Notes: a model not told the origin generated them from the sequence alone. A stretch of DNA of 32,000 nt from Candidatus Saccharimonadota bacterium (GCA_001790095.1 MGBH01000001.1:360001-392000), one strand, 5' to 3'; counted from the first letter of the stretch, positions 13,427-25,532 are shown. Program-made: numbers and translations.

Positions 13427-13976
13427 CAACGAAACAAGACGTATCGATGAGCTTTGTATTTTACTACAGAATCATATTGTTACCGAGATAACCCCAATGC
13501 ATATTTCAGATAACGATGTTGCAAAAAACGATCTTATTATCCTTACGGGTAGCCATAAGGTTTCCCTTATTGGGCACGAGGCTTATTTTAACAAGGAGAT
13601 TGAACTTATTAAGTCCTGTTCCAAACCTATAATTGGTATTTGTTTGGGGTTGCAGCTCATTGCTTATGCCTATGAGGGTTTTGTAGGTCGAATGCCGGCA
13701 AAACATGATGGAATAAAAAATATCCAAGTAGTGGGGTCTGATCCCATATTTGGTGAAAAAAGCTCATTTAAAGTATATTCAAGTCATCGATGGATGGTAG
13801 AACGGATAGATTTTCCTTTAATTGGTTTAGCACGAAGTGAGGATGGATGGGAGATAGTAAAACACTCAAACAAAAACATATATGGTTTTCAATTTCATCC
13901 AGAAGTACAACAAAAAAACATATTAGATGGCAAATGGCTTTTTGAAAGGATAGTTCAGACAGTTTGTCCTTCTTGA
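13407..13976 (+). CDS. Class I glutamine amidotransferase-like protein (GATase1 / peptidase C26 fold)
   Basis: Nucleophile elbow IGICLGLQLIA (Cys) and FQFHPE (His-Glu) in a 189-aa protein. It overlaps folC by 20 nt. The specific partner or activity cannot be told from sequence. Confidence 0.75.
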   Translation: MNILVINNETRRIDELCILLQNHIVTEITPMHISDNDVAKNDLIILTGSHKVSLIGHEAYFNKEIELIKSCSKPIIGICLGLQLIAYAYEGFVGRMPAKHDGIKNIQVVGSDPIFGEKSSFKVYSSHRWMVERIDFPLIGLARSEDGWEIVKHSNKNIYGFQFHPEVQQKNILDGKWLFERIVQTVCPS

Positions 13977-15202
13977 TTCTTCAATAGCAGTCTTCTTATT
14001 AAAGTAATACTTACTATTATCATAAGATCTAAAACGATAAAGTACCTACAGAAAAACGATGAAGTGTTGGCAAACACAAAGAAGCTGTAGGTAAAGCACT
14101 TATTTATAAGGCGAAATACTAAAAATGTTGCAATAACCCCCGCAAGGCCCATAAGATTATGTTTACGGTTGTTTATATTCTTTGCAACAAGGAAGTAATA
14201 AAGAGAAGCTAGTATTCCCTCCACAAGCAGTATCTGCCACCATAGACAGTTACATGTTTCAATTCCCTTTACTTCACCGATCTGTTCCCTTGTTTCAGGG
14301 GGAGAAAGAGTTGGGGCGGGCGTACTTGTGATGGTGGTTTCACCAGCGACTTCACCCGCCGGCACTGCCGGTCCTCCAAAGAAAGTAGTGAAGAGACCTA
14401 AAACTCCGCCTGAGGGTGCAGACGATGAGCTTTGTGCAGAAGATGATGAGGCTGAGCTTTGTTGTTGACAGTCTGCATAGCGTATCGTGACAGTCTGTGA
14501 AGGGTATCCGTTGTCTGGCTCAGCTTTTACTTCATCGTCTGTTGAGTAGCTGTATCCCGCGACAGCCTTTCCGTCACTTCCTGTATTTACTTCTTGGACT
14601 GATCCTTTATAAGTAAACTTGACTTTTACTCCAGACTGGACAACCCCATTGTCTTTTAACTCCATAATAGCGTCAAAATTGGAGTTAGTACATGATGTGT
14701 AAAGAGAAGAGGTTTTACCGATGGGTTGATCGAGAAATCCTATGGAAAGGTCAAACTTGGTTGAGGTATTTTGATACTCATTTCCAGCATCAAGATCCAT
14801 AGATACAGTAAATGCAAAGGTTTCAGATGACCCATTTCCCAGACTTGTCAAAAGCTCTGTTTCACCGTTTGCATAAAATGAACTTAAAAGTCCAGACCAG
14901 GCTTGTGAACTGTCAGATCTGGTTATAGTAAGATGCATTACATGGTCAAGATTACCGTTGGTTACCTCATTTGATGAATCTGCTCCAACTTTTTGACTGG
15001 TACCGCTTGCATTTGTGATCTGAACCGTTTTTGTCATGGTTTTACCCGGATACCATACTTCTGATGAAGGGAAAAAATTCGTAATAATGGATGGAGTACA
15101 GTCAGAGCTTGTACAGGTTACATTTTCATCAGCCGCAAAAGCTGATTGGGTAACGATCAATAAACCAAACGTCATTAACAGTATCAAAAATATTTTTTTC
15201 AT
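13955..15202 (-). CDS. Secreted protein with an N-terminal TasA/camelysin-like beta-sandwich, a Cna-B-like domain, a Ser-rich linker and a C-terminal 3-4 TM membrane domain (candidate fibre anchor)
   Basis: Domain evidence along the protein:
- Classical signal peptide MKKIFLILLMTFGLLIVTQSAFA|A.
- ...PGKTMTKTVQITNASG...MDLDAGNEYQNTSTKFDLSIGF resembles the PGD...N.G... and gN.YQg...f.f.F.a.Q blocks of TasA/CalY.
- Linker SSASSSSAQSSSSAPSGG.
- Hydrophobic C-terminus (WWQILLVEGILASLYYFLVA, LMGLAGVIATFLVF, YFIVLDLMIIVSITLI).
The start overlaps the upstream stop as ATGA. The ORF is well supported; the function is tentative. Confidence 0.6.
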   Translation of the reverse strand: MKKIFLILLMTFGLLIVTQSAFAADENVTCTSSDCTPSIITNFFPSSEVWYPGKTMTKTVQITNASGTSQKVGADSSNEVTNGNLDHVMHLTITRSDSSQAWSGLLSSFYANGETELLTSLGNGSSETFAFTVSMDLDAGNEYQNTSTKFDLSIGFLDQPIGKTSSLYTSCTNSNFDAIMELKDNGVVQSGVKVKFTYKGSVQEVNTGSDGKAVAGYSYSTDDEVKAEPDNGYPSQTVTIRYADCQQQSSASSSSAQSSSSAPSGGVLGLFTTFFGGPAVPAGEVAGETTITSTPAPTLSPPETREQIGEVKGIETCNCLWWQILLVEGILASLYYFLVAKNINNRKHNLMGLAGVIATFLVFRLINKCFTYSFFVFANTSSFFCRYFIVLDLMIIVSITLIRRLLLKNQEGQTV

Positions 15203-18200
15203 GGTTTAGTCTCCAATAGTATTTCTTTGCCTTCTTTATCTGTCAGCACAACTGTTAATGTCAAATTCTCTGTATCTGTAAGTTTAGTGCACACACCTCC
15301 TGAGCATGTTTCAAGGATAATGCCTTTTGCTTCATACTTGTCCTGGCCAGATAATACTTCCTCCGACGAGGAATTATCCGCAATGATTTTTTTGGTCAAA
15401 CTATTTTCAAGCTTATAGGTTAATTCAGAATAGGCGGTAATGTTTTCCACTATAAATCCTATTGAGTCTTTGGTCTCTGAAAAAATGAGTATTACTTTTG
15501 GATTTTTATCAAGTGCAACTGTTGGCGCAAGAGTTAAAGTAGGGGTGGGTGGTATAGTTTGTTTAAGTTTACGATTATACGGCTCATTTTCCGATCGGTT
15601 TTCAACTCTTGGAGTGCCTCTTATATCTGATCCTGTAACCCCGACGGTAAAAAAGTCTGTATAGGATTGAGCATCAATACATGAGTACCAATTTAAAGGA
15701 TCCGTACCGTCTCCAGGTATTGAGGTACGCTCCATAGAGTAATATTTGAGATTGACAGCATCATATAATCCCTCACCTTCACCATCTGAAAGATTGTACG
15801 TGTAGTCCCAAGCTGAATCAAGCACGTTGTCTAAAGAATCAGTGAGTTGTAGTTGTAGGTGTCCTGCAGCCAAATCAACAGAAGTAGTTACAAGATCGGC
15901 TGTGACTAAAGGTCTCAGCTGACTATCTGAAGAGCCGGGTGTATAGTTTGCTATGAGATAATATCCACGAGCTTCAATGAAAGAAGATGGTAAAGTAATC
16001 ATATCTACATATGTTGATCCATTATATTTTTGAATCTTAAACCCAGTGAGATCAATCGTTCGATCTGTCATATTGCGAAGCTCAATCCATTCATCAGCAG
16101 AGGATACGCTTGAACCCATCCACATAAGCTCATTTATTATAAGATCGCCCGGTGAAACAGTTGTGGCTGGAGAGAGAGGTGTGGTTGTGCTGCTTGTTGT
16201 ATAGATGTCTGACCAATTTGGTGCTTCATCTGCAGCCTTTATTGCAAAATAATAAGTAGTAGAAGGATTGAGGCCCAAGATTTCAATTGTTTCTTCTAGT
16301 CCGGACTCATTAGGTACTGGGCTTTTGCCAGAGGATGTGGCCGTCTCAAAGTTGTCAAGATCAATGGGGGAAGTAGAATATCGTATATCATATTTTGCAG
16401 CCTTTCCTGACGCCCCGTCGTTGCCTGGTGCAGTCCATGATAATGTCGCTGAGTTTGCACCGATTTCATCCACCTGAAGATCTGTTATCTGGGATGGCGC
16501 TTGAGTGTCGGTTATGATCTGAACTCTATAGATCAAGCTCTCATTTCCTGCATTATCAACTGCCTTGTATTCAACCCAATGATCGCCGTGTTCTGTTACC
16601 TGAAATGTTGAGGGAGTTTGTTGCCATGATCCACCTCCAATGCGGTATTCGTAATGGTTTATGCCTGAAGAGGAGTCTGTACCTGATAAAGTATAGATAG
16701 CGTGACCTGGAGCTGATACAAAATAAGTGGTTATCGCATCTACGTAACCCCACGATTGACGGGTGTCATCATAACTGTTGCCTGCATAAATAGCTAGATT
16801 GATGTTTTCGCTATCAGAATAATTACTTAAATCATAGTAGAATTGTTGCCAACCGCTTGATGTTGCGATACCCACATCCGTATCATCAAGTACAGATGGA
16901 TCTAATTTAAATACCTCCTGACCATTTAACCGTATGAAGAAGCCCGGATCATCAAATGGAGCAAAATCATAAGACGCATAGTTATAGTGAAGGGATAAAC
17001 TTTTTGCCCCTCCGGATATCGACTGCATAAGGCGGTTTTCCCAAACTTTATTACCTTGATCGGTCGGATAGGTATAGTTGCCAATCTTTGCCATAGACAA
17101 ACCCTCATATGGATTGATTACCAGATCTGGTTCGGGAGACAATTGAGGAATGGTATCACTAGCTATGACATCTACATCTCCTGCAGTTGTCCAACCGTTC
17201 AATCCGTCTTCTAACCCACCATTAACAACTTTTTCCTCAACAGCCTTGGTATAGGATCCGGTTATCGAAAGAGAGACAGGAGATGGAGCAACACTATCGT
17301 AGACGATTGAACACTCAGAGGACCAGACAGAAATATTATTTGTTTTGTCATATGCTCTTACTTTATAGGTATGGACTCCTTGTCCTGCGTTGAAGACGCC
17401 TGTGTATTGTGAAGAGATGACAAAGGTACTCCATGTACCAATCGTCCCGTCTAGCTTGGGATAGGTGATAAAGTACTCGTATTTCTCTATTTGCCCAGGG
17501 AAAGGATCTATTACATTATCCCAGTCAGCAATTATGCTATAACTATTTGTTGCTCCGCCACAGGAGATGATAGTACCGTCTGCTTTTTTCCATAGCAGGT
17601 TGGTCGGCGCAGGGGGAGCGGTGTTGTCTACTATCACTTTCCAAGCAGGAGTCCAGTCGCTACAGTTATCCAATGTGTCGCAAGCCTTTACATGCCACCA
17701 ATATTCACCGTCCGGCGTGCCTGGAGCTGGTATTTGGGATGCGGAAAGATGGCCTGAAGTATATGCTAAGGGTGAAAATCCCGGATTTCTTGCACTTTGA
17801 TATATATAATAAACAGGGTTATGCATATCTTCATAATCAGTTACATCCGACCAATCCATAACCAATCCAGACGTATTTCTATATGAATTATTAGTAGGAG
17901 ACAAAAGAGTGGGTACGGGCGGAGGTACAAAATCTTTAACTGAAAATGTAACCCCCGACGCAGTAGAAGAGGATACAAAAAGAGCTCTCGATATCTCACT
18001 TACTCCATATATAACCAAGCCGTTTAATATAAAAGCAAGCAATATGACATTTTTTAGCAATGCTTTCCCTTTTTTATTCTTTGTTTTTTCAAGAACTTGA
18101 TTTGTACGTCTTTCTACTTCCTCATCAATACCCAGTTTTATTGTTTTTATCTGAAGAACAGCTAAAATCAAAGCAGGAAAAATCACAATTGCCGCAAACC

Positions 18201-18714
18201 CCTTTGGTGTTTTGATCAATGCCCCTATATGACCGAGATAGGGGACTGAAAAGAGAAACTGTCCTTTTATCATGGTTTGTGAGATGGTCCAGCTGTCGGG
18301 TGAGTTGTTATTATCTCCTTTTGTCATAAAGGTCTTTTCCTTCCCCGATTTGTTAACAGCGATGATTCTATGAAGTACGGTAAGTTTTGAGTCTTTAGGA
18401 GAAGTAAATGTTATTATGTCGCCTTTTTTGAGCTTGGTTGTCTCTGCGGGTTTTACAAATGCAACAGATCCTGCATGGATAGCCGATTCCATAGAGCCTG
18501 TGGCTACAATATATGTATATATATACTTCTTTGTGGGTAGAAGGGGTGAGAGGACTATGAGAAATGTAGCGATCAGCACGGCAAATATAGCCCACTCAAA
18601 TACTATGCCCACCGTCTTGAGTATCTTCCATACCTTTGCCGTATTGTTTTTTTCTACTTCTTTCTTAGCCATATAAATACTTATCTGACAGTAGGAAGCG
18701 GCGTCCCGCCTCAT
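15199..18714 (-). CDS. Fusion ORF: archaeal/ER-type signal peptidase I (SipW-like, S26B) joined to an internal SipW-class signal peptide and a ~920-aa multidomain passenger (FN3-like x3-4, CBM-like jelly roll, lamin-tail domain)
   Basis: SipW part (about aa 15-190, 18145-18672):
- TM helix, then ATGSMESAI (Ser box), VLHRII (His box), TKGDNNNSPD, then a second TM helix.
Junction (aa 213-256, 17947-18078):
- KKGKALLKNVILLAFILNGLVIYGVSEISRALFVSSSTASGVTF.
Passenger:
- Domain boundaries DNTAPPAP, DSVAPSP, DTQAPSQ.
- VVNGGLEDGLNGWT (CBM-like).
- LSWTAPGNDG...YDIRYS...YYFAIKAADEAPNWS (FN3).
- LIINELMWMG...DEWIELRNMTDRTIDLTGFKI (LTD).
The likely real start is ATG 18672 (MAKKEV). Confidence 0.8.
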   Translation of the reverse strand: MRRDAASYCQISIYMAKKEVEKNNTAKVWKILKTVGIVFEWAIFAVLIATFLIVLSPLLPTKKYIYTYIVATGSMESAIHAGSVAFVKPAETTKLKKGDIITFTSPKDSKLTVLHRIIAVNKSGKEKTFMTKGDNNNSPDSWTISQTMIKGQFLFSVPYLGHIGALIKTPKGFAAIVIFPALILAVLQIKTIKLGIDEEVERRTNQVLEKTKNKKGKALLKNVILLAFILNGLVIYGVSEISRALFVSSSTASGVTFSVKDFVPPPVPTLLSPTNNSYRNTSGLVMDWSDVTDYEDMHNPVYYIYQSARNPGFSPLAYTSGHLSASQIPAPGTPDGEYWWHVKACDTLDNCSDWTPAWKVIVDNTAPPAPTNLLWKKADGTIISCGGATNSYSIIADWDNVIDPFPGQIEKYEYFITYPKLDGTIGTWSTFVISSQYTGVFNAGQGVHTYKVRAYDKTNNISVWSSECSIVYDSVAPSPVSLSITGSYTKAVEEKVVNGGLEDGLNGWTTAGDVDVIASDTIPQLSPEPDLVINPYEGLSMAKIGNYTYPTDQGNKVWENRLMQSISGGAKSLSLHYNYASYDFAPFDDPGFFIRLNGQEVFKLDPSVLDDTDVGIATSSGWQQFYYDLSNYSDSENINLAIYAGNSYDDTRQSWGYVDAITTYFVSAPGHAIYTLSGTDSSSGINHYEYRIGGGSWQQTPSTFQVTEHGDHWVEYKAVDNAGNESLIYRVQIITDTQAPSQITDLQVDEIGANSATLSWTAPGNDGASGKAAKYDIRYSTSPIDLDNFETATSSGKSPVPNESGLEETIEILGLNPSTTYYFAIKAADEAPNWSDIYTTSSTTTPLSPATTVSPGDLIINELMWMGSSVSSADEWIELRNMTDRTIDLTGFKIQKYNGSTYVDMITLPSSFIEARGYYLIANYTPGSSDSQLRPLVTADLVTTSVDLAAGHLQLQLTDSLDNVLDSAWDYTYNLSDGEGEGLYDAVNLKYYSMERTSIPGDGTDPLNWYSCIDAQSYTDFFTVGVTGSDIRGTPRVENRSENEPYNRKLKQTIPPTPTLTLAPTVALDKNPKVILIFSETKDSIGFIVENITAYSELTYKLENSLTKKIIADNSSSEEVLSGQDKYEAKGIILETCSGGVCTKLTDTENLTLTVVLTDKEGKEILLETKP
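17947..18078 (-). other. Internal SipW-class signal peptide within the 1171-aa ORF
   Basis: It has a K-rich n-region, the h-region VILLAFILNGLVIYGV, then SEISRA|LFVSSSTASGVTF. This aligns with the N-terminus of the TasA-like protein (GGTAYA|LFSSSVTASGVTF). The DNA of the two segments is not similar, so conservation is at the protein level. Confidence 0.65.
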
Positions 18715-18738
18715 GCTGTCAAGAAGTACTTAATTAAG

Positions 18739-19299
18739 TTATGGCGCAACTTGAGTACCTGTGATCAACCAAGTTGTGGCAGTTGTTTTATTTGCTATGC
18801 TATTTCCTGCATCACTTGGAACCTGGACATAGATTCTCATCAATTTTTGCTCACTTTGAGCAAGTGTAATGGTGATATCTCTTTCTAAGGAATTCCAGTC
18901 TGCTAAGGTGTAGTATCCGCTACCAACAGCGCCTGCATCATCACCGATCCAAGCAGTGATAACTGGTGATAAGACACCCCAGTCACCGGTTGCTGCAGTT
19001 AGTCTTGCGCTTAAGCGAAGACTAATAGGCGATGTACTTGTGTTTCTTAAATAGAATTCGTTGTAACCGTTATATCCTGGATATAGATTCTGAAATGTGG
19101 TTGGAAAAGTTACATTTTGAGTCCATGTTGAAGCTGGTACGACGCCTGGTCCATTTGACCAAAACTCTAAGTTGGCATTACCAGTTGCAAACGTCACTCC
19201 GCTTGCCGTGACACTGCTTGAGAACAACGCATACGCTGTTCCACCGACAACAGCTGTTAACATAACCAATCCTAAGAATCCTGCTATTATTTTATTCAT
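18739..19299 (-). CDS. TasA/camelysin-like (Peptidase_M73 family-like) secreted protein with a SipW-class signal peptide; candidate major fibre subunit
   Basis: MNKIIAGFLGLVMLTAVVGGTAYALFSSSVTASGVTFATG parallels B. subtilis TasA ...LVGGGTWAAFND...ATFASGTLDL. The C-terminal block DAGNSIANKTTATTWLITGTQ parallels the TasA/CalY ...N.YQG....f.f.f.atQ end. It has the only strong SD in the window (AAAGGAGGTGA, 7 nt before the ATG). Confidence 0.7.
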   Translation of the reverse strand: MNKIIAGFLGLVMLTAVVGGTAYALFSSSVTASGVTFATGNANLEFWSNGPGVVPASTWTQNVTFPTTFQNLYPGYNGYNEFYLRNTSTSPISLRLSARLTAATGDWGVLSPVITAWIGDDAGAVGSGYYTLADWNSLERDITITLAQSEQKLMRIYVQVPSDAGNSIANKTTATTWLITGTQVAP

Positions 19300-19354
19300 A
19301 TATTTTCACCTCCTTTCAAATTAACTTAATCAAATTGTTAACAAACGAAAAGCA

Positions 19355-19392
19355 CAAAAAAAACCAACCTTGTTTTCAAAAAAACTTGGTTG
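19355..19392 (-). terminator. Intrinsic-terminator-like hairpin plus T8 (minus strand) between the sortase gene and the TasA-like gene
   Basis: The minus-sense sequence is CCAACC-AA-GTTTT-TTTG-AAAAC-AA-GGTTGG followed by TTTTTTTT (T-tract at 19362-19355). It lies downstream of a promoter-like element, so it could act as an attenuator rather than a simple terminator. Confidence 0.45.
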
Positions 19393-19420
19393 GCATGTGG
19401 CGTATACATGTGATTAGATC

Positions 19421-19449
19421 ATCCTACACCCTTTAAAAATATTTGTCAA
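19421..19449 (-). promoter_or_regulatory. Promoter-like element TTGACA-N17-TAGGAT (minus strand) upstream of the TasA-like gene
   Basis: -35 TTGACA at 19449-19444, a 17-nt spacer, -10 TAGGAT at 19426-19421 (4 of 6 matches to TATAAT). Confidence 0.4.
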
Positions 19450-19512
19450 GCGATAGTCTTACAGACGTATTAAATGTTGACATTACAACCTAAAAACTAT
19501 TACAGAATTTAT

Positions 19513-20202
19513 TTATTTAGTGAGCTGCGCATCGACGATAAGCCGCTTAAATGTAGTACCTGGGGGCCAGCAAGTCATAAGACTTATTGTTTTTTTTGTT
19601 TTATCTTGTTTTAAATATTTAAGTTCACTTGGCTCAACGATCTTACTGCCTGTTACTTTATATTTGAATTTATCTCCTTTATAAAATAGATAAATATCGT
19701 CGTTTGTTTTAAGCTTAGTTAAAAGATAAAAAATAGCATTATATCTGTTTGCTTGATGCCAATTTGCAGCAGAATGCGCAAAGATAAAGGTATTGCCGTA
19801 TTCTCCAGGATATGCCGTGTCACGAGCATGCGCCACTCCTTTGGTAAGTTGTAACTGATACTCTTTTTCATTAAACGGGCTTACGTTGGCAATAACGGGT
19901 GAATTGGCACCTATCTTAGGTATCACTAATCCGTATTGTTCATCAACCGGTTCGATCACCTTATTACTTGTTATCAAGGTTGGCTTTTCTTCATTTTTTG
20001 AGAGGACAAGAAAATTGTTCACTCCTGGTTTTAAATAGAAAGATATTTCTTGAAACAAGACAGGATAATATATAAGAGTAAGAAGGACTAATCCGGCGGA
20101 AATAAATGCAAATCCACCGACCATCAACAAACGATGTATGTGATTTGGCTTAAAGCCATTCTTTTTTACTTTTTTCCGAATTTCTTTTTTTGTTTTTGAC
20201 AT
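19513..20202 (-). CDS. Sortase-family cysteine transpeptidase
   Basis: It has a basic N-terminus and one TM helix. Motifs seen: LVIPKIG, GNTFIFAHS (catalytic His), ISLMTCWPPGT (TLxTC-type catalytic Cys), KRLIVDAQL (Arg). Starting at 20202 overlaps the upstream ORF tail by 53 nt in an A-rich, Lys-coding stretch. Alternative start at ATG 20124. Confidence 0.85.
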   Translation of the reverse strand: MSKTKKEIRKKVKKNGFKPNHIHRLLMVGGFAFISAGLVLLTLIYYPVLFQEISFYLKPGVNNFLVLSKNEEKPTLITSNKVIEPVDEQYGLVIPKIGANSPVIANVSPFNEKEYQLQLTKGVAHARDTAYPGEYGNTFIFAHSAANWHQANRYNAIFYLLTKLKTNDDIYLFYKGDKFKYKVTGSKIVEPSELKYLKQDKTKKTISLMTCWPPGTTFKRLIVDAQLTK

Positions 20203-23200
20203 AATAAATAGCTCCTAAAATCAATGCTACTAAACCAAGTATGCTAAGTATAATCACCTTACGGTTAGCGACCCAGTTTAATGCATTAGAAAATACGTCT
20301 TTGTCCTTCTGAGTTTTCTCACCTAAGACACTTTCATTATTGTTAGATGTGTTTGCTCCGCTTGTTTCTTCTTGATTTACCTCTTCGGCACCTTGTACCT
20401 CTCCTTCAGTCTCACCTGCTGCAAGGGTGACATTGGTGACAGGAATTGCTCCGCCACCACCTGTGGTTGTCCCTGTACTTGTGCCGGGATTTGAGACAGT
20501 GGTTGTGGTGCCAGTGGTTGTAGTTGTGGTGGTTGTCACCGTGACACTATCTCCCACAAGACCTGAGCCATTGTCAGCACTATCAAAAGCTCTTAATACA
20601 TAGAAATAGGTTTTGTTACAGTCTCCGACAATATCATTATAGCTCCCATTTTGATTGGAACCAATAGATATTGTGGTACGTCTAGATCCTGAATCTGCTG
20701 TAAAGGAGGTATTTTCAGAACGATATACCTCTACTCTGGTTGTTTTGCCACCATCGTCTGCAGTGCGAAACATGATCTTGTATTCACAGGATGACACTTT
20801 TTCTTTTGCATAATTTGTCGGCGTACCTGGTCCGCTTGTATTATAGTCAACAGTTATGGTTTCACTCGTTGCAAAATCATCACTTGTTGTGGCTGTTGCA
20901 TAAAATTGAAAGGTACCATTTTCACTAATCATGCTTGATTCAAGAGGACATAATCCGCTGTTTCCGCCAGCTGTAACAGATATGTCACCACCTATTTGGT
21001 TATAAGCAGAGCTTGGCTTTTTCATGTAGCATCTTACGGTGACAGGTAAACCCTTAAGGTCCAATGTGACATAACCGAGATTAAAATCATTGATGCGGGA
21101 TGGGCTTTTTGGTTGTACAAGCCTCACGTGTAGATTAGTTACGGCTTGAACCCCACCGGAAACAGTTAAAAACAAAGCTGTTGCTATAACAAAAGCAGAA
21201 ATCCTCAAGGCAAATGTTTTTTTCTGGAATAAAGCTGAGATGAACATAGACAGTCCGATAAGTATCATGAGTCCTGATAGCATTACCCATATGCTTGGTG
21301 TGCCAGTTCCTGGCAGACCAGTTGAAGCACCAAGTACATCACCATTCTCAGTTACCTCTTTTTTTTCTTCTTTTCTCACATCTACACCAGAGGAATCTTG
21401 CTGGGTTTGATTTATACTTACTTTTGTACCTACAAATGTGTCAATTCCTGTAAACGTACCTGGGTCGACGGTGCCTGAATCTACGGCTTGAGCAAGCAGG
21501 GCGTCAGAGCTTTCAATGGTGCATTCGGTACTTGTTGTACACCCAACAGCCCATGCAAGATCTTTATAGAGTCCTGGTTTTTGACTACCATCAATTACGG
21601 CGGTATACACAAGTTCGATAATGTCCCCAGCATCTGTATCTCCAATCTGCCATTCACCAGGGGAATGATATTGAGGTTCTGGAATAGCAAACTCAACTCC
21701 ATTTTTATATGTTTTCCAGCTTCCAGCCTTATAGGTAAATCCGGAAGGTGGAAGATCAGTTACCACAACGTCCTTGACTCCGTAGTCTAATATCTTCAAA
21801 GTAAGTTTGTATACGACTTCATTACCAGGAGTTGTATCATTTGGCCACGTTGTATTGAATTTGGACAAAGTCATGTATGGTTCAATATGTCTGTTGCCGA
21901 TATAGCAATGGACTACTTCTCCCACATTAACAGTAACACTGTGAAGATTGTCATTGTCTTCATGTGATTCATCACCATCACAATACATGGTGGTTTGAGT
22001 CCATCCTGGTTGAGATTCAAGGTCTTCACTAAAATCATAGACACCCTCTGGTAGTTCAAAACTCACCTCACCGGATTCGGTAGTGGTCTTTATTACTTCG
22101 TTAAGAATTATATTCCAGCCTGATAAATAAGTATCAACATCCTGATCTATATATGAGTCGCCGTCAACATCTTCAAATTTGGTTACTATAACCTGTCCAG
22201 TTGTCGGGGTGACTGTTGGACCAACTTTAAAGTTATCAGTTTTTGAACAATCACTTGGGAAATCTGGGCTTGAGCTTACCCAAACCTTATATTCACCGCC
22301 TGGATTTGAAGTATCTGCAAAAGCTGTCAATTCAAAGAGGTTATAGCATTGTTCGAAACTACCATCAACCACTGTGATTGAAGGTGTGTTGCTTTGACCA
22401 AGCAAAGTGCCGTCTGGCTCAGTCACTTTTACATAATACTGCCCGTCAGGTAGACCCGATCCGTTACCGTTTGGCCCACCGTTCAAATAAACATCTGTCT
22501 TTAATGCGTAATTCACATTTTCATTTACCACTTCACAATACCTATCGGTTGTCCATACAGCTCCATTTAAGTGTTCACAGGATGGAGCGGATGAAGAGGA
22601 AGAAGAGGATGAACTCGAGGATGAACTCGTGGATGAACTTGAAGATGAGCTGCTAGAGGAGGAAGACGAAGATGAACTAGAACTACTTGAAGAAGAAGAC
22701 GAAGAGGTTGATGAACTACTTGAACTACTTGATGAAGAACTTGATGAAACAGAGGTTGGTGTTGGTGTTACTCCATTGATTGAATATACACAGTCTGAAG
22801 GATCCGAATTTGGCTCACCTGATGGATAAGAACAAACATCAAGAAGTGTAGCGTTTGTACCACCACCGATGTCAGCCATCTGTACTGTGCATGTTGCAAC
22901 AGCATCATCCGGGTAATGATCTCCTTCTGGGTCAAATGGATCATCTGGCAACACGCTTACAGAACAAGAAGAAGTATTTGTGATTTCAGTAGCTTGCATA
23001 CATCTGTCGACCCTATCATTCCTACATGAGTAAAGAACCAATGAATCAAATTCTGCAGGGGTGTTTGTAACTGACACACATAAAGAATAGTTTGCAAAAC
23101 CATCACCGTCTGTATCAAAGAGACTACATCCGTCTCCAGTATTTGCTCCTGTCCATCCTATTTCATCCCACTGCATTTTCATTTCAAAATAAACATCCAT

Positions 23201-24280
23201 TTCAGAATTATCAAAACACATACGAGTCATGTCTTTTTGACCTGGTTCATCATTGGGCCCTTCAGAATCTGCATAACATACCCAGTTTGCATCTGTGAAT
23301 GTTGTTGTAGCAACGAGTACGCCTAACTGGTCTTTTACCTCAACCTTATAGTTTGGTCTGTATATCCCGTCAAGCTGATAGGTATATGTGAATGTGCCAA
23401 ATGCGTCAGTTGTGGTTGATCCTACCGTATATACGGCTGGTGCATCGTCAGATGAAACCACTATGGTGTAGGTATAGCCAGGGGTAAAATTCTCACCCGT
23501 GATAACTGCTTTTTCAGTCGGAGCATAGTCACTCTTGTCTGTCCAAACTGATGGATCAACATATGCTTGATTATTGCTTTCAATTATTGTTATCTGTATT
23601 GTTTCATCGCCGGTTTCTAAATTAGCGCCCTGTGTGGGTGCAACAGTGACAGTAGGAGAAATCTGTGTTGATATGCCATCAAGTATTTCACCTTTTTCAA
23701 CTACTGTAGGAGTGGGCTGCAGTGCTGGGGTAGAAGTAATGGTTGGAGAAACTTCAAGATCCTTGCCATTTTCAATCCAATATTTTTCATCGTCTGTCAT
23801 CTCAGTTACAGAGCCGACCGTATCTTCTTTCTCGATTCTTATCTCACCATTTTCCAAAAGAAATCTTTGTATTCTAAACCAGTTCTGATTTGCTAAATTG
23901 ACTTTCAAAATACCTCTTGGAACAGTATGATTTATGCATGTTCCATGCGTTGAGCAGGTTTTTGCTTCCAGTTCCTTTATAAAATTTTCAATCCCAAGTT
24001 CAGTTTCACCTTGAACCGCCTCAATCTGATTAGTTGAGTTAGGAGAATCATTTTTGTAAAGAAGCGAATACGTAATTTTTCCTGAAGTAATGCTGTTTTC
24101 TTTTGTGTTTATCTCAAACTTAAACGCTCCTTTTTGACTTTCATATCCAAGTTTTACCGATAAAGGCTCAGATGAAAAAACGTACTGCGGTACGATATAG
24201 AGGTAGGGAGTAAGTGTGTTAAAAAGAAGAGATAAGATTGTTAAAAAGCCAAAAGCCTTGCGAAGAATTTTTTGTCTCAT
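20150..24280 (-). CDS. Giant surface protein with an internal LPGTG sortase signal (aa 989-993), followed by a second ectodomain and a C-terminal TM anchor
   Basis: Order along the protein:
- N-terminal signal-like helix.
- Ig/Big-like modules.
- A Cys- and Asp-rich region (DTDGDGF).
- A ~55-aa Ser tract.
- A Cna-B/SdrD-B-like module (VIVTKFEDVDGDSYID...GW...).
- A DUF11-like repeat (VTDLPPSGFTY).
- LPGTG, a 25-aa hydrophobic stretch and QKK.
- TFALRISAFVIATALFLTVSGGVQA.
- Two FN3-like modules.
- A Thr-rich linker.
- TM helix VIILSILGLVALILGAIYYV followed by KNKKRNSEKSKKEWL. Confidence 0.85.
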   Translation of the reverse strand: MRQKILRKAFGFLTILSLLFNTLTPYLYIVPQYVFSSEPLSVKLGYESQKGAFKFEINTKENSITSGKITYSLLYKNDSPNSTNQIEAVQGETELGIENFIKELEAKTCSTHGTCINHTVPRGILKVNLANQNWFRIQRFLLENGEIRIEKEDTVGSVTEMTDDEKYWIENGKDLEVSPTITSTPALQPTPTVVEKGEILDGISTQISPTVTVAPTQGANLETGDETIQITIIESNNQAYVDPSVWTDKSDYAPTEKAVITGENFTPGYTYTIVVSSDDAPAVYTVGSTTTDAFGTFTYTYQLDGIYRPNYKVEVKDQLGVLVATTTFTDANWVCYADSEGPNDEPGQKDMTRMCFDNSEMDVYFEMKMQWDEIGWTGANTGDGCSLFDTDGDGFANYSLCVSVTNTPAEFDSLVLYSCRNDRVDRCMQATEITNTSSCSVSVLPDDPFDPEGDHYPDDAVATCTVQMADIGGGTNATLLDVCSYPSGEPNSDPSDCVYSINGVTPTPTSVSSSSSSSSSSSSSTSSSSSSSSSSSSSSSSSSSSSSSSSTSSSSSSSSSSSSSAPSCEHLNGAVWTTDRYCEVVNENVNYALKTDVYLNGGPNGNGSGLPDGQYYVKVTEPDGTLLGQSNTPSITVVDGSFEQCYNLFELTAFADTSNPGGEYKVWVSSSPDFPSDCSKTDNFKVGPTVTPTTGQVIVTKFEDVDGDSYIDQDVDTYLSGWNIILNEVIKTTTESGEVSFELPEGVYDFSEDLESQPGWTQTTMYCDGDESHEDNDNLHSVTVNVGEVVHCYIGNRHIEPYMTLSKFNTTWPNDTTPGNEVVYKLTLKILDYGVKDVVVTDLPPSGFTYKAGSWKTYKNGVEFAIPEPQYHSPGEWQIGDTDAGDIIELVYTAVIDGSQKPGLYKDLAWAVGCTTSTECTIESSDALLAQAVDSGTVDPGTFTGIDTFVGTKVSINQTQQDSSGVDVRKEEKKEVTENGDVLGASTGLPGTGTPSIWVMLSGLMILIGLSMFISALFQKKTFALRISAFVIATALFLTVSGGVQAVTNLHVRLVQPKSPSRINDFNLGYVTLDLKGLPVTVRCYMKKPSSAYNQIGGDISVTAGGNSGLCPLESSMISENGTFQFYATATTSDDFATSETITVDYNTSGPGTPTNYAKEKVSSCEYKIMFRTADDGGKTTRVEVYRSENTSFTADSGSRRTTISIGSNQNGSYNDIVGDCNKTYFYVLRAFDSADNGSGLVGDSVTVTTTTTTTTGTTTTVSNPGTSTGTTTGGGGAIPVTNVTLAAGETEGEVQGAEEVNQEETSGANTSNNNESVLGEKTQKDKDVFSNALNWVANRKVIILSILGLVALILGAIYYVKNKKRNSEKSKKEWL
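21218..21316 (-). other. Complete cell-wall sorting signal (LPGTG, hydrophobic helix, QKK) at an internal position
   Basis: LPGTG is encoded at 21316-21302. TPSIWVMLSGLMILIGLSMFISALF and QKK follow, down to 21218. The ORF continues in frame with no stop. Confidence 0.8.
22589..22753 (-). repeat. Ser-tract coding region (aa 510-564; about 55 residues, nearly all Ser, interrupted by V and T)
   Basis: SVSSSSSSSSSSSSSTSSSS...SSSS then APSC. It uses mixed TCN and AGY codons rather than a pure trinucleotide repeat. The antisense frame gives a spurious E/D/L-rich ORF (22629-22829). Confidence 0.9.
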
Positions 24281-24321
24281 AAGAAGCGTTTTTAAATTAA
24301 ATTAAGTAACTGTAACAACTC

Positions 24322-24352
24322 AAAAAAAAATCGCTAATCTTTTTCAATTAGC
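24322..24352 (-). promoter_or_regulatory. Short hairpin GCTAAT-N8-ATTAGC followed by GA plus T9 in the 5' leader of the giant LPGTG gene
   Basis: Stem arms at 24352-24347 and 24338-24333, T9 at 24330-24322 (minus sense). The stem is weak (6 bp, AT-rich), so function is uncertain. Confidence 0.3.
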
Positions 24353-24359
24353 TTATAAT

Positions 24360-24388
24360 ATTATACATTATTTGAGCTTTATTGTCAA
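24360..24388 (-). promoter_or_regulatory. Perfect-consensus sigma-70 promoter TTGACA-N17-TATAAT (minus strand) upstream of the giant LPGTG gene
   Basis: -35 TTGACA at 24388-24383, a 17-nt spacer, -10 TATAAT at 24365-24360. It lies about 80 nt upstream of ATG 24280. Confidence 0.6.
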
Positions 24389-24436
24389 TCTAAGTATGTT
24401 TCCTTTACAAAAAAGGATAATACATACTGCATATAT

Positions 24437-24462
24437 AACGCTTGATAGTAATTTTTGTTACA
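24437..24462 (-). promoter_or_regulatory. ECF-sigma-type promoter candidate TGTAAC-N16-CGTT (minus strand)
   Basis: TGTAAC at 24462-24457, a 16-nt spacer, CGTT at 24440-24437. The AAC-N16-CGT geometry resembles the published sigmaX/sigmaW/sigmaM-class ECF consensus. It lies just downstream of the sigma and membrane-protein genes and upstream of the LPGTG operon. Confidence 0.4.
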
Positions 24463-24502
24463 CATTTACTTAAAAAGAAGATAACCATGACTTATGAGAG
24501 AA

Positions 24503-24982
24503 TTATGGATGATCGGGGTGAATAGGATGCTCAGGATGTTCAGGGTGAATAGGATGCTCAGGATGATCTTTTGATACTTCAGCAGAAGAGGATGAGGATG
24601 AAGATGTTGAAGAAGAGGAGTTGCTAGATATAGAGGTGGTAGGTTGCAAAGAACTATCCGAACCGGCTGATGTCTTAAGAGGGGTTGGAGTAATTTTTTG
24701 CGTAGTTTTTGTCTCTTCTTGTATTTTCTGGGATGAATCTGCTTTTGGCAACTTTGTAGCTATTATGCTTGTAGCTACTATTCCTGCAGTAACAACAGTT
24801 AGCAGCCGTTTGTTTGCGATTTTTTTAACTTTATTTAATATTCCTTTTGTCTGAGGTGGGAGTGGAAGATTATGCGCACAATGATGAAGAAGTGTGTTTT
24901 TTAGCGCCTGCCTTTGATTGTGGCCAAGGACAAAGCCTCCCTTTAGAGAGCTCAAATTGTGTATTAATTTTTTATCTTCCAT
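24503..24982 (-). CDS. Single-pass membrane protein translationally coupled to the ECF sigma (putative anti-sigma factor) with a Ser-rich linker and a C-terminal (HPx)7 tail
   Basis: The start overlaps the sigma stop by 11 nt. The TM helix is LLTVVTAGIVATSIIA. The extracytoplasmic part is SISSNSSSSTSSSSSSSAEVSK then DHPEHPIHPEHPEHPIHPDHP. I did not recognise a canonical zf-HC2 motif, so the anti-sigma call rests on context. Confidence 0.45.
   Translation of the reverse strand: MEDKKLIHNLSSLKGGFVLGHNQRQALKNTLLHHCAHNLPLPPQTKGILNKVKKIANKRLLTVVTAGIVATSIIATKLPKADSSQKIQEETKTTQKITPTPLKTSAGSDSSLQPTTSISSNSSSSTSSSSSSSAEVSKDHPEHPIHPEHPEHPIHPDHP
24516..24569 (-). repeat. 27-bp tandem duplication (2 copies) encoding the HPEHPIHPE/HPEHPIHPD repeat
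   Basis: On the plus strand, gggtgaataggatgctcaggatg is repeated at 24516-24542 and 24543-24569. The first 22 nt are identical and the last 5 differ. Confidence 0.85.
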
Positions 24983-25532
24983 TGTTTAGTATTTGTTTTA
25001 ACTTAGCGATTGCTCTATGTTGGGTCACTCTGACTGACTCTGGTGATTTATCGATAATAACTGCCACTTCCTGCACTGGCAAATCCTCAATAAAACGCAA
25101 AATGACGATTTCCTTATAATCTTGAGGAAGCTGCGCGATCGCCTCATGAAGCTTTTGACATTCATCATCTTTGGTCACCTTATCTAAAATTTCAGATTTA
25201 CCGTCATGTTTATCAAATTTTTCAAAAGTATCGATATTAGTTATATTCGTTTTTTTCTTATCATCAAAATAATCGTAAATCAAATTTCGTGCTATAGCGT
25301 ATAGAAAAGCCCGAAAATTGTCTTTTTTATATTTATATATATAACTCCAAGCTTTCTTAAAAGTTTCACTTACGATATCTTCTGAATCGGGTACAGAATG
25401 TAGTTGGATCATGCAGTAGCGAAAGATTTCATCGGATAAAAGCTCAAAGAGTTTTCCATACGAATCAATATCGCCTTTTTGGCCCAGTTTTACCAAGTTC
25501 TCAATATCCATCTTTGTATAAGACCTCGGCAT
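24972..25532 (-). CDS. ECF-type RNA polymerase sigma-70 family factor
   Basis: 186 aa. Region 2-like segment: DIVSETFKKAWSYIYKYKKDNFRAFLYAIARNLIYDYF. Region 4 HTH: YKEIVILRFIEDLPVQEVAVIIDKSPESVRVTQHRAIAKLK. Confidence 0.85.
   Translation of the reverse strand: MPRSYTKMDIENLVKLGQKGDIDSYGKLFELLSDEIFRYCMIQLHSVPDSEDIVSETFKKAWSYIYKYKKDNFRAFLYAIARNLIYDYFDDKKKTNITNIDTFEKFDKHDGKSEILDKVTKDDECQKLHEAIAQLPQDYKEIVILRFIEDLPVQEVAVIIDKSPESVRVTQHRAIAKLKQILNNGR

What the first reader, a model, noticed from the sequence alone, without database searches (positions are those of the whole stretch)
13955..25532. One 11.6-kb minus-strand locus combines two normally separate surface-assembly machineries (sortase/LPXTG and SipW/TasA) next to an ECF sigma pair
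Seen in sequence: the gene order is sigma, a coupled membrane protein, the LPGTG giant, sortase, the TasA-like protein, the SipW-passenger ORF, and the TasA-domain membrane protein. All lie on the same strand with only two intergenic gaps (24281-24502 and 19300-19512).
- About 3,400 codons of a very compact, housekeeping-dense region are devoted to extracellular modules (FN3, Cna-B, DUF11-like, CBM-like, LTD).
- The LPGTG giant has a Y-V-F-S-S motif after its N-terminal helix (..VPQYVFSSEPLSVKLGY). This loosely resembles the YALFSSS motif of the SipW class, so it might also be a SipW client.

Inference:
- The locus could be a dedicated attachment organelle, with a wall-anchored adhesin plus a TasA-type fibre carrying a tip protein.
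- If the organism is an episymbiont of the CPR type, this is a plausible host-contact apparatus.
- By eye the locus looks somewhat GC-richer than the flanks. The Gly/Thr/Ser/Asp/Pro-rich composition could explain that.
Basis: inference. Interest (0 to 1): 0.7.

Follow-up and report, generated by a model that had tools for sequence, protein, structure and literature searches.

The report
Two linked surface-attachment modules in Roizmanbacteria
In a tiny candidate-phyla-radiation bacterium, a gene set for a TasA-type fibre sits beside a gene pair for a sortase-attached giant surface protein; the two are separable modules that recur together in relatives, and the general layout is already published, though this version has some unusual gene fusions.

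Summary
The seven minus-strand ORFs, both intergenic gaps and the family calls are real. The window is Candidatus Roizmanbacteria RIFOXYC2_FULL_38_9.

The stretch looks like three units, not one machine:
- **ECF sigma pair:** a sigma gene plus an overlapping membrane protein. It is not conserved with the rest (1 of 80 related sortase loci has a sigma nearby).
- **Sortase pair:** in the 1376-aa protein the LPGTG signal lies 388 residues from the end. A second membrane helix, two FN3 domains and a membrane anchor follow it. This layout recurs in 113 of 150 cluster representatives, and 64 of 66 related sortases sit directly after such a module.
- **Fibre cassette:** a TasA-fold subunit, a SipW-type peptidase fused to its own substrate through an internal signal peptide, and a membrane-anchored protein with a TasA-like domain. 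All nine independent relatives' loci have the first two genes, and all seven that extend far enough have the third.

Sortase pair and cassette occur apart in most relatives but lie together in about 20-35% of loci, in several arrangements. In one lineage the TasA-like base protein carries the LPXTG signal itself. Both modules carry a homologous ~90-aa domain at their free ends.

The higher GC is amino-acid composition, not gene transfer. The giant is probably not a SipW client. A 2026 preprint already describes TasA-superfamily loci with tips, anchors, peptidases and sortases, so this is a new variant.

The parts
24972..25532 (-). ECF-type sigma factor (186 aa). It neighbours the surface modules but is not conserved with them.
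   Evidence: Sigma70_r2 and r4_2 domains; TIGR02937 101.8 bits against a cut-off of 42.9. No homologue in L001-L017; 1 of 80 sortase loci has one nearby.
24503..24982 (-). Anti-sigma-like 159-aa protein with one membrane helix. Its outer part is Ser-rich and ends in a His-Pro repeat.
   Evidence: 11-nt overlap with the sigma gene; TM at residues 60-78. No family hit. No homologue in 80 sortase loci.
24360..24388 (-). Sigma-70-type promoter-like site, TTGACA-17-TATAAT, in the gap upstream of the giant.
   Evidence: 12 of 12 consensus positions. This is a consensus match only.
20150..24280 (-). 1376-aa surface polyprotein: signal peptide, tip-like domain, Ser/Thr run, stalk domains, internal LPGTG sorting signal, then a C-terminal membrane module.
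   Evidence: Homologues P0032-P0038 keep the whole layout. No Pfam hit on this protein.
23888..24160 (-). N-terminal tip-like domain of the giant (about residues 41-131, G-x-C-S-x-x-G-x-C motif). It is homologous to the C-terminal domain of the SipW passenger.
   Evidence: jackhmmer hits SipW fusions P0299 (2.4e-13) and P0301 (1.4e-12). hhalign probability 95.0%, E 3.9e-8, 80 columns. Plain BLASTP of the two window sequences is negative.
21302..21316 (-). Internal LPGTG sortase motif (residues 989-993), followed by a membrane helix (994-1018) and QKK.
   Evidence: An internal [LMF]PxTG lies 313-429 residues from the C-terminus in 113 of 150 family representatives. In the split form in L017 the upstream protein ends in a canonical C-terminal sorting signal.
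20153..21217 (-). C-module (residues 1022-1376): second signal-like membrane helix, two FN3 domains each with a conserved Cys pair, Thr-rich disordered linker, C-terminal membrane helix and basic tail.
   Evidence: AlphaFold model: pLDDT 80-95 in the two domains. Foldseek finds tandem FN3 folds, 1qg3 at 6.6e-7 and RbmA at 4.9e-6. 610 cluster representatives at E<=1e-3. Conserved columns.
19513..20202 (-). Sortase (229 aa, N-terminal membrane helix). It falls below the score cut-off of every curated sortase class.
   Evidence: PF04203 1.5e-24; TIGR01076 61 bits against 39; best class match is class C at 70.7 bits against a cut-off of 160. Closest PDB sequences are class C sortases, E 3e-9. H143, C211 and R220 are invariant in A6.
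19421..19449 (-). Promoter-like site, TTGACA-17-TAGGAT, in the sortase/TasA gap.
   Evidence: 10 of 12 consensus positions.
19355..19394 (-). Hairpin CCAACC...GGTTGG followed by a run of eight T, between the promoter-like site and the TasA start. Weak terminator or attenuator candidate.
   Evidence: Centroid structure -12.6 kcal/mol; z-score only -0.93.
18739..19299 (-). TasA-fold fibre subunit (186 aa) with a SipW-class signal peptide (TAYA|LFSSS) and the proposed N-terminal donor strand.
   Evidence: 31 homologues, including Shapirobacteria. Y23, A24, F26, N86, S88, G181 and Q183 are invariant. Model and Foldseek match to 8aur_A. PF12389 only at E 0.16.
18070..18714 (-). SipW-type (S26B) signal peptidase domain of the 1171-aa fusion (residues 1-215; two membrane helices; GSME, LHRI and GDNNN boxes).
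   Evidence: TIGR02228 103.1 bits against 51.85. TM prediction. Orthologues are standalone in L013 and L015.
17983..18069 (-). Internal signal peptide (residues 216-244): basic loop, third membrane helix, predicted cleavage at S-R-A|L.
   Evidence: BLASTP against the TasA signal peptide region, E 0.001. Conserved in all fusions. In L013 it is the passenger's own N-terminal signal peptide.
15202..17982 (-). Passenger (residues 245-1171): TasA-like N-terminal strand LFVSSSTASGVTFSV, then an OmpL47-type barrel, FN3 and LTD domains and the terminal tip-like domain (about residues 1073-1159, window 15238-15498).
   Evidence: Pfam and NCBIfam hits. Strand co-variation with TasA. Tip-domain alignment A5 and hhalign.
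13955..15202 (-). 415-aa base candidate: ordinary signal peptide (AFA|AD), C-x4-C, TasA-like domain without a donor-strand motif (residues 44-151), linker, C-terminal domain of three membrane helices with invariant Cys, Trp, Tyr and Phe residues.
   Evidence: hhalign to the TasA family 95.4%, E 1.8e-8. Present in every cassette locus that extends far enough. The homologous domain is on the LPXTG protein in L015/L016 (97.1%, E 5.8e-11).

Best explanation
The region holds two separable surface modules placed next to an unrelated ECF sigma pair.

**Module 1: sortase pair (20150-24280 and 19513-20202).** The 1376-aa protein is exported through an ordinary signal peptide. Sortase cuts it at the internal LPGT|G (inferred). 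The roughly 950-aa N-terminal stalk, with the tip-like domain at its free end, is joined to the wall (inferred). The C-terminal 384 residues stay in the membrane as a hairpin, two FN3 domains and an anchor helix. That remnant is a dedicated partner of this sortase subfamily, and its role is unknown.

**Module 2: fibre cassette (13955-19299).** The SipW-type peptidase removes the signal peptide of the TasA-fold subunit. It also cuts its own fused passenger at the internal S-R-A|L site (inferred). The freed passenger has only a TasA-type N-terminal strand and no TasA core, so it would donate that strand to the first subunit and cap the distal end as the tip. Subunits would then chain by donor-strand exchange. 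The 415-aa protein has the TasA-like core but no donor-strand motif, and it has three membrane helices. It would accept the last strand and hold the fibre on the cell (all inferred).

**Link between the modules.** They share a homologous free-end domain and are recurrently but not obligatorily co-located. In another lineage the base protein itself carries LPXTG plus the C-module and is followed by the same kind of sortase.
For: **Cassette conserved.** The TasA-like gene followed by the SipW fusion is present in all nine independent relatives' loci, and the third gene in all seven that extend far enough (L001, L002, L004, L006, L011, L013, L088); L007 and L008 end inside the fusion.

**TasA fold.**; base-domain homology.

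**Peptidase-substrate fusion.**
- The internal signal peptide matches the TasA one.
- [VI]-x-A| followed by the strand motif is kept in eight fusions plus P0298, P0299, P0301 and P0302.
- L013 has the same parts as separate genes.
- The predicted topology obeys the positive-inside rule.

**Shared strand.** Identity between the TasA strand and the passenger strand is 0.65 within a locus and 0.41 between loci. Only 14 of 40,320 permutations reach that value.

**Sortase polyprotein.**
- 113 of 150 representatives have an internal LPxTG, a median of 364 residues from the end. Another 36 are standalone C-modules.
- L017 shows the split form: a canonical LPATG protein, then the C-module, then sortase.
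- 64 of 66 sortases are directly preceded by a C-module.

**Link between modules.**
- Tip-domain homology.
- Integrated operons in L015 and L016.
- Co-location in 6 of 24 well-flanked sortase loci, in at least four arrangements.

**Literature.** TasA assembles by donor-strand exchange and TapA donates its N-terminal strand (PMC9674648, PMC10151520). LPXTG anchors and sortases occur in TasA-superfamily loci (bioRxiv 10.64898/2026.01.04.697558).
Against: - No cleavage, polymerisation or anchoring has been observed. Every processing step is inferred from sequence.
- The TasA assignment fails the Pfam threshold and finds no PDB sequence match. The Foldseek TM-score is only 0.53.
- The strand co-variation rests on few independent events, mainly two clades, and gene conversion could produce it.
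- Tip-domain homology needs profile methods; BLASTP finds nothing.
- No multimer model could be run, so the tip and base polarity is untested.
- The promoter and terminator evidence is consensus-level only.
- Most relatives carry just one module within reach, so co-location could be lineage synteny plus a few chance events.
Confidence: 0.6

Rival explanations
1. One reading: one integrated attachment organelle. All seven genes form one co-regulated system under the ECF sigma, and the giant is also processed by SipW.
For: - All genes lie on the same strand with tight spacing.
- The modules co-occur again in L013 and L088 in the same order.
- They share a tip domain.
Against: - The sigma pair is absent from L013, L088 and all other related loci except one unspecific case.
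- Both gaps carry sigma-70-like promoter matches.
- Each module occurs alone in most relatives.
- The giant family's signal peptides end in variable small-x-small sites followed by (S/A)EPL, not in the A-x-F-S-S motif.
Confidence: 0.12
2. Chance neighbours: the sortase pair and the TasA cassette are functionally unrelated, and both happened to land in a variable spot next to the rodA-ileS cell-division cluster.
For: - L006 (cassette only), L014 (sortase pair only) and L013 (both) all sit beside the same rodA-ileS block, and in L006 and L013 also beside lepB-parB-L21.
- In C. perfringens a sortase gene lies directly 5' of sipW-bsaA, and deleting it had no effect on the BsaA polymer (PMC7395162).
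Against: - Co-location in 6 of 24 sortase loci and 4 of 11 cassette loci, in at least four different arrangements. This is far above the roughly 2% expected for a 20-kb window in a 1-Mb genome.
- The L015/L016 operons put the TasA-like base domain, LPXTG and the C-module in one protein.
- The tip domain is shared.
Confidence: 0.2
3. Released matrix rather than an anchored fibre: as in Bacillus biofilms, the TasA-like protein forms a shed extracellular scaffold. The 415-aa protein would be an assembly or secretion accessory factor, and the passenger would stay tethered to the SipW domain as an uncleaved membrane protein.
For: - B. subtilis TasA and C. perfringens BsaA are mostly extracellular matrix polymers (PMC9674648, PMC7395162).
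- The 3-TM domain of the 415-aa protein has invariant Cys, Trp, Tyr and Phe residues, which suggests more than an anchor.
Against: - The small-x-small site and the strand motif are conserved exactly where the unfused orthologue has its signal-peptide cleavage site.
- The base domain is replaced by an LPXTG-anchored version in L015/L016. That fits anchoring rather than catalysis.
Confidence: 0.15

Closest known systems
Bacillus subtilis tapA-sipW-tasA operon
   Same: - A dedicated S26B signal peptidase sits next to a TasA-fold subunit.
- A second client's N-terminal strand resembles that of the subunit. TapA donates its N-terminus to TasA (PMC10151520).
- Assembly is by donor-strand exchange (PMC9674648).
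   Different: - Here the peptidase is translationally fused to the TapA-like client.
- The client carries FN3, LTD and tip domains instead of the TapA Ig fold.
- A third conserved gene supplies a membrane-anchored TasA-like domain.
- The subunit fails PF12389, and the peptidase fails the Bacillus SipW equivalog (98 bits against a cut-off of 190).
AbpX-type and Tafi-type TasA-superfamily loci (bioRxiv 10.64898/2026.01.04.697558; PMC11821415)
   Same: - The blueprint is a major subunit, a predicted tip, a minor subunit or anchor, and a dedicated TIGR02228 peptidase.
- Bacterial loci are reported as frequently linked to LPXTG-anchor proteins and sortases.
- AlphaFold 3 predicts donor-strand pairing between the LPXTG anchor and the fibril subunit.
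   Different: - Those examples are from Bacillota and archaea; the term Patescibacteria does not occur in the preprint's main text.
- Their peptidase has ten membrane helices or a DUF5305 partner.
- The passages read describe neither a peptidase-tip fusion nor an internal LPXTG with a C-module.
Sortase-assembled Gram-positive surface proteins and pili, including the signal-peptidase-like SipA/LepA of streptococcal pilus islands (my own knowledge; PMC7900414 was retrieved but not read)
   Same: - LPXTG motif, membrane helix and basic tail next to a dedicated sortase.
- Stalk built of Ig-like domains.
- A signal peptidase homologue in the same island.
   Different: - The sorting signal is internal, and the leaving group is a 384-residue membrane protein.
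- No YPKN-type pilin motif was found in the giant.
- The sortase falls below every class cut-off.
- The peptidase here keeps its catalytic Ser and His boxes.
Clostridium perfringens srtB-sipW-bsaA region (PMC7395162)
   Same: A sortase gene lies directly upstream of a sipW plus TasA-like operon.
   Different: In C. perfringens the sortase was shown to be dispensable for the polymer. Here relatives fuse the TasA-like base domain to an LPXTG signal.
SafA, the small membrane protein genetically linked to the actinobacterial housekeeping sortase (PMC9282373; abstract only, from the listing)
   Same: A conserved membrane protein is encoded next to a sortase.
   Different: SafA is a small transmembrane protein with an FPW motif that shields the sortase from signal peptidase. 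The C-module is about 350 residues with two extracellular FN3 domains and is usually fused to the substrate.

Membership tests
TasA/camelysin (Pfam PF12389, TasA superfamily) | Sequence match above the Pfam gathering score | tested here: not met
   186-aa protein: E 0.16, 12.2 bits against 22.5, signal-peptide region only. A profile of 30 homologues finds no TasA sequence in the PDB.
TasA/camelysin (Pfam PF12389, TasA superfamily) | Jelly-roll beta-sandwich fold of TasA | tested here: met
   AlphaFold pLDDT 82. The best PDB match is the TasA fibre 8aur_A: E 1.3e-6, probability 1.0, TMq 0.53. The bundling pilus 7ueg, CanA and FimG also match.
TasA/camelysin (Pfam PF12389, TasA superfamily) | SipW-class signal peptide and an adjacent dedicated S26B peptidase | tested here: met
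   Y23, A24 and F26 are invariant. The peptidase gene starts 24 nt downstream. The pairing is kept in all nine independent relatives' loci.
TasA/camelysin (Pfam PF12389, TasA superfamily) | Polymerisation by N-terminal donor-strand exchange | not testable with these tools
   No multimer prediction is available. The evidence is indirect: the N-terminus is unstructured in the monomer model, and the strand co-varies with the passenger.
SipW / ER-archaeal type signal peptidase I (S26B, TIGR02228) | Score above the curated cut-off | tested here: met
   103.1 bits against 51.85, residues 41-191.
SipW / ER-archaeal type signal peptidase I (S26B, TIGR02228) | Catalytic Ser and His boxes | tested here: met
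   Read directly from the sequence: TGSME, VLHRI and KGDNNN. All three are conserved in L001, L002, L004 and L006.
SipW / ER-archaeal type signal peptidase I (S26B, TIGR02228) | Bacillus SipW equivalog (NF046067) | tested here: not met
   98.3 bits against a cut-off of 190.
Sortase (PF04203 / TIGR01076) | Domain score and the catalytic His, Cys (TLxTC-like) and Arg residues | tested here: met
   PF04203 1.5e-24; TIGR01076 61.4 bits against 39.35. H143, C211 (LMTCWP) and R220 are invariant in six relatives.
Sortase classes A-F (NCBIfam NF0337xx) | Score above a class cut-off | tested here: not met
   Best is class C at 70.7 bits against 160. Classes D, E and F are lower. The nearest PDB sequences are class C, at E 3e-9 only.
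LPXTG cell-wall-anchored protein (TIGR01167) | LPXTG, hydrophobic helix and basic residues | tested here: met
   LPGTG at 989-993, helix at 994-1018, QKK. Conserved in 113 of 150 relatives.
LPXTG cell-wall-anchored protein (TIGR01167) | Sorting signal at the extreme C-terminus | tested here: not met
   The LPGTG motif starts 388 residues from the C-terminus, so 383 residues follow it. The TIGR01167 hit at 1343-1367 covers the last helix, which has no LPXTG.
LPXTG cell-wall-anchored protein (TIGR01167) | Cleavage by sortase and linkage to peptidoglycan | not testable with these tools
   Inferred from the split form in L017 and from the peptidoglycan genes in the window: ftsW, murG and a murT/gatD-like pair.
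ECF sigma / anti-sigma pair | Sigma regions 2 and 4 above cut-off; an overlapping gene for a single-pass membrane protein | tested here: met
ECF sigma / anti-sigma pair | Recognisable anti-sigma domain | tested here: inconclusive
   No Pfam or NCBIfam hit. No H-x3-C-x2-C motif was seen in the sequence.

The most novel reading that the evidence does not exclude
Patescibacteria have their own modular attachment toolkit that has not been described.
- A large family of sortase-processed polyproteins. The leaving group after an internal LPXTG is a conserved tandem-FN3 membrane protein that works with the sortase.
- Self-processing SipW-tip fusions that prime a membrane- or wall-anchored TasA-type pilus.
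- One small disulfide-containing tip domain shown either on the wall-anchored stalk or on the fibre end. That would make it the candidate host-contact element of these presumed episymbionts.
Probability: 0.3. Interest if true: 0.75.

Novelty: new variant of a known kind. Interest (0 to 1): 0.55.

Why it matters
How CPR/Patescibacteria cells attach to hosts is largely unknown outside type IV pili in Saccharibacteria. I found no paper on their sortase systems.

This locus gives concrete, testable candidates:
- a TasA-type fibre with a defined tip and base;
- a peptidase fused to its own substrate, which is a convenient system for studying SipW specificity;
- a widespread family of sortase substrates with an internal sorting signal (at least 370 clusters at E<=1e-30), which breaks the rule that LPXTG signals are C-terminal;
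- a shared tip domain that could be expressed and used to search for a ligand.

The general tip-shaft-anchor-peptidase-sortase blueprint is already in a 2026 preprint. The value here lies in the variants and the lineage, not in a new principle.

Tried and rejected
**Searches that found nothing.**
- A PDB sequence search with the TasA-family profile gave only chance hits. Fold comparison was needed.
- BLASTP of the 186-aa against the 415-aa protein, and of the giant N-terminus against the passenger C-terminus, found nothing. Profile methods did.
A 9-sequence subset gave only five genome loci.
- A degenerate DNA search for the G-E-V-L-G motif was uninformative.
- A literature search for internal LPXTG returned only irrelevant papers.
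- The last protein search, with the SipW N-terminus, returned only 21 hits. The frequency of fusions is therefore not quantified.

**Leads rejected or left weak.**
- L003 looked like a 91%-identical relative in which SipW and passenger are split. It is the same population, 100% identical, with N gaps and a 33-nt insertion, so it is not independent evidence.
- The N-terminus of the L015 704-aa LTD protein is not significantly similar to the TasA family by hhalign (E 0.21). It has only sub-threshold PF12389 hits, so its TasA-like nature stays weak.
- Horizontal transfer inferred from GC is rejected.
- The giant as a SipW client is rejected.
- The hairpin in the sortase/TasA gap is weak as a terminator (z -0.93).
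- Weak SipW-model hits in L018, L023, L024, L041 and L075 (E about 1e-5 to 1e-6) were taken to be probable lepB-type peptidases (not checked against a LepB model) and were not counted.

Full report
**Origin and observation**

The 186-aa protein is 100% identical to a hypothetical protein of Candidatus Roizmanbacteria bacterium RIFOXYC2_FULL_38_9. The deposited record GCA_001790195.1 has the same gene calls as my ORFs. Seven minus-strand ORFs occupy 13955-25532, with only two real gaps, 24281-24502 and 19300-19512.

The flanks are housekeeping genes:
- ftsW, murG, ftsQ, ftsA, ftsZ, ileS, rodA, L21 and a parB-like gene;
- a canonical lepB and a murT/gatD-like pair;
- on the other side, a secreted lipase-like protein, two methyltransferases and a DUF2142 membrane protein.

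**Component identities**

- **Sortase and sigma.** Sortase (PF04203, 1.5e-24) and the ECF sigma are clear.
- **SipW-type fusion.** The 1171-aa ORF starts with an S26B/SipW-type peptidase: TIGR02228 at 103 bits against 51.85, with GSME, LHRI and GDNNN boxes. It continues into an OmpL47-type barrel, FN3 and LTD domains.
- **TasA-like subunit.** The 186-aa protein has no family hit above threshold (PF12389 E 0.16) and no PDB sequence match. An AlphaFold model built on 30 homologues (pLDDT 82) has the TasA fibre 8aur_A as its best PDB match (E 1.3e-6). Other donor-strand filaments follow: the archaeal bundling pilus, CanA and Fim subunits.
- **Base candidate.** The N-domain of the 415-aa protein is homologous to this family (hhalign 95.4%, E 1.8e-8).
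- **Domain labels.** The Cna-B, DUF11 and CBM labels are not reproduced on the giant itself. They do appear on its homologues.

**The fibre cassette**

Nine independent relatives' loci carry the TasA-like gene followed by the SipW gene or fusion. Seven of them extend far enough and also carry the third gene: L001 (Shapirobacteria), L002, L004, L006, L011, L013 and L088. L007 and L008 end inside the SipW fusion.

*The peptidase is fused to its own substrate.*
- After the peptidase domain and its second membrane helix come a basic loop and a third helix. Then comes S-R-A|LFVSSSTASGVTFSV. This aligns with the TasA-like signal peptide and N-terminus, TAYA|LFSSSVTASGVTFAT.
- The feature is kept in every fusion seen.
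- In L013, peptidase (218 aa) and passenger (854 aa) are separate genes. There the passenger's own N-terminal signal peptide takes the place of the window's internal helix.
- The ORF is therefore best read as a peptidase fused to its own substrate, and cleavage would free the passenger. This is inferred.

*The strands co-vary.* The 11 residues after the cleavage region differ between lineages but match between TasA and passenger of the same locus. Identity is 0.65 within loci against 0.41 between them, and only 14 of 40,320 permutations reach that. Few independent changes lie behind this figure.

*Proposed assembly.* TasA is known to polymerise by inserting its N-terminal strand into the next subunit, and TapA primes it with a similar strand (PMC9674648, PMC10151520). 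I therefore propose three roles:
- The passenger is a strand-only tip.
- The 186-aa protein is the shaft.
- The 415-aa protein is the cell-proximal end. It has the core, a C-x4-C in place of the strand motif, and three membrane helices.

This polarity is inferred; I could not run a multimer model.

**The sortase pair**

LPGTG lies at residues 989-993 of 1376. It is followed by a helix and QKK, a second signal-like helix ending VQA|V, about 290 structured residues, a Thr-rich linker and a last helix with a basic tail.

*The layout is conserved.*
- It is not a read-through artefact: P0032-P0038 keep it.
- A search of 1.84 billion cluster representatives with this C-terminal part found 610 proteins at E<=1e-3 and 370 at E<=1e-30.
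- Of the best 150, 113 have [LMF]PxTG 313-429 residues before the end (LPATG 67, LPSTG 22, LPGTG 14). Another 36 are standalone proteins of about 320 aa that start at the second helix.
- Locus L017 shows the split form: a protein ending in a canonical LPATG-helix-KLKKKYA signal, then the module, then a sortase.
- In 80 metagenome loci found with a sortase alignment, 64 of the 66 with enough upstream sequence have the module ending within 200 nt of the sortase start.

*What the module looks like.* The model shows a helical hairpin and two FN3-like domains. Two Cys pairs and a cluster of polar residues are more than 95% conserved.

*Likely processing.* The likely course is sortase cleavage of a polyprotein. 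The stalk would go to the wall and the module would stay in the membrane beside the sortase. The module's role is open. The sources that name these proteins call them hypothetical or SdrD B-like.

**Are the two modules one system?**

*Evidence against an obligatory link.*
- Seven cassette loci have no sortase, giant or sigma within their flanks.
- L014 has the sortase pair alone, at the same genomic spot.
- 18 of 24 well-flanked sortase loci have no cassette element.
- Each gap in the window has a sigma-70-like promoter match, a perfect one before the giant.
- C. perfringens has a sortase gene next to sipW-bsaA that is dispensable for the polymer.

*Evidence for a real link.*
- L013 and L088 repeat the window's order.
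- L029, L032, L039 and L043 place cassette parts near the sortase in other arrangements. L060 has only a third-gene-like domain.
- In L015 and L016, one operon reads SipW, an LTD protein with a SipW-type N-terminus, and a protein made of the TasA-like base domain, DUF11, LPxTG and the C-module. A sortase of the same subfamily follows (hhalign to the third-gene family 97.1%, E 5.8e-11).
- The giant's N-terminal domain is homologous to the passenger's C-terminal domain (jackhmmer 1e-12 to 1e-13, hhalign 95.0%, E 3.9e-8). In the proposed topologies both sit at the end furthest from the cell.

I conclude that the modules are separable, that their association is recurrent but facultative, and that they share a tip domain.

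**What is not part of it**

- **Sigma pair.** It has no homologue near any related cassette or sortase locus, apart from one unspecific ECF sigma among 80.
- **Giant as SipW client.** The family's signal peptides share an SLLLNSxxPF core and end in variable small-x-small sites before (S/A)EPL. P0032 reads YVFA|KEP.
- **Horizontal transfer.** GC3 of the locus equals that of the flanks, and the GC excess is in the second codon position.

**Comparison with what is known**

- TasA homologues in Patescibacteria were already noted, as was the idea of a strand-donating tip adhesin (PMC9245690).
- A January 2026 preprint on AbpX reports that TasA-superfamily loci commonly encode a TIGR02228 peptidase, predicted tips, minor subunits and anchors. 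It also reports that bacterial loci are often linked to LPXTG anchors and sortases predicted to pair by donor strand with the fibril.
- The blueprint is therefore known. I did not find these elements described:
  - the peptidase-tip fusion;
  - the base protein with three membrane helices;
  - the internal-LPXTG polyprotein family with its FN3 module;
  - the shared tip domain.
- I found no paper on CPR sortase systems.

**Verdict**

This is a new variant of a known kind, with interest of about 0.55.

Noticed in passing
window 25560-28187 (-): An 875-aa secreted protein combines a weak GH130/GH43-like propeller with an LCAT/PGAP1-type alpha/beta hydrolase. Homologues sit next to the giant in L014 and L080 and near it in L024, so it may belong to the same surface neighbourhood.
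   Followed up: partly
window 24506-24565 (-), C-terminus of the 159-aa protein: The extracellular tail ends in a His-Pro repeat, HPEHPIHPEHPEHPIHPDHP, after a Ser-rich stretch. This could be a metal-binding sensor end of the anti-sigma-like protein.
   Followed up: no
window 22589-22747 (-), giant residues 512-564: A 53-residue run made almost entirely of Ser, with a few Thr. It is a likely flexible or glycosylated spacer and a likely assembly trouble spot.
   Followed up: no
giant residues 1-40 (window 24161-24280) and about 20 family members: The signal peptides of the giant family share a conserved core, S-L-L-L-N-S-x-x-P-F with a Pro, before the cleavage site. This recalls the specialised YSIRK-type signal peptides of some LPXTG proteins.
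   Followed up: no
giant residues 980 and 1293; 415-aa protein residues 283 and 309; also in relatives: A short motif, G-[EDQ]-V-[LQKA]-G-[AE]-x-T, recurs just before each membrane anchor or LPXTG in the giant, its C-module and the third gene. Similar copies are seen in relatives. Its role is unknown.
   Followed up: partly
window 13979-14254 (-), 415-aa protein residues 317-408: The C-terminal domain of three membrane helices has invariant C317, W321, L325, C385, Y387 and F388 across five distant relatives and no family hit. That is more conserved than a plain anchor needs to be.
   Followed up: no
window 12074-13976 (+) and 11355-11930 (-): A murT/gatD-like pair (Mur ligase plus class I amidotransferase) converges on the 415-aa gene and overlaps it by 22 nt. 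A canonical LepB-type signal peptidase is encoded 2 kb away, so the genome has both peptidase types.
   Followed up: no
L003 (ENA scaffold of the same population): An older scaffold is 100% identical to the window apart from N gaps, a 33-nt insertion that splits the SipW fusion into 279-aa and 886-aa ORFs, and a 45-nt deletion in the TasA-like gene. This is most likely assembly noise, but it could mislead comparisons.
   Followed up: yes
giant residues 1084/1111, 1165/1221 and 1176-1244 (C-module): Across 149 family members, two Cys pairs are about 100% conserved. D1176, T1180, R1230, N1237, S1239 and D1244 are at least 96% conserved, as is an aromatic Tyr at position 1186. This points to a conserved binding or catalytic surface on the second FN3 domain.
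   Followed up: partly
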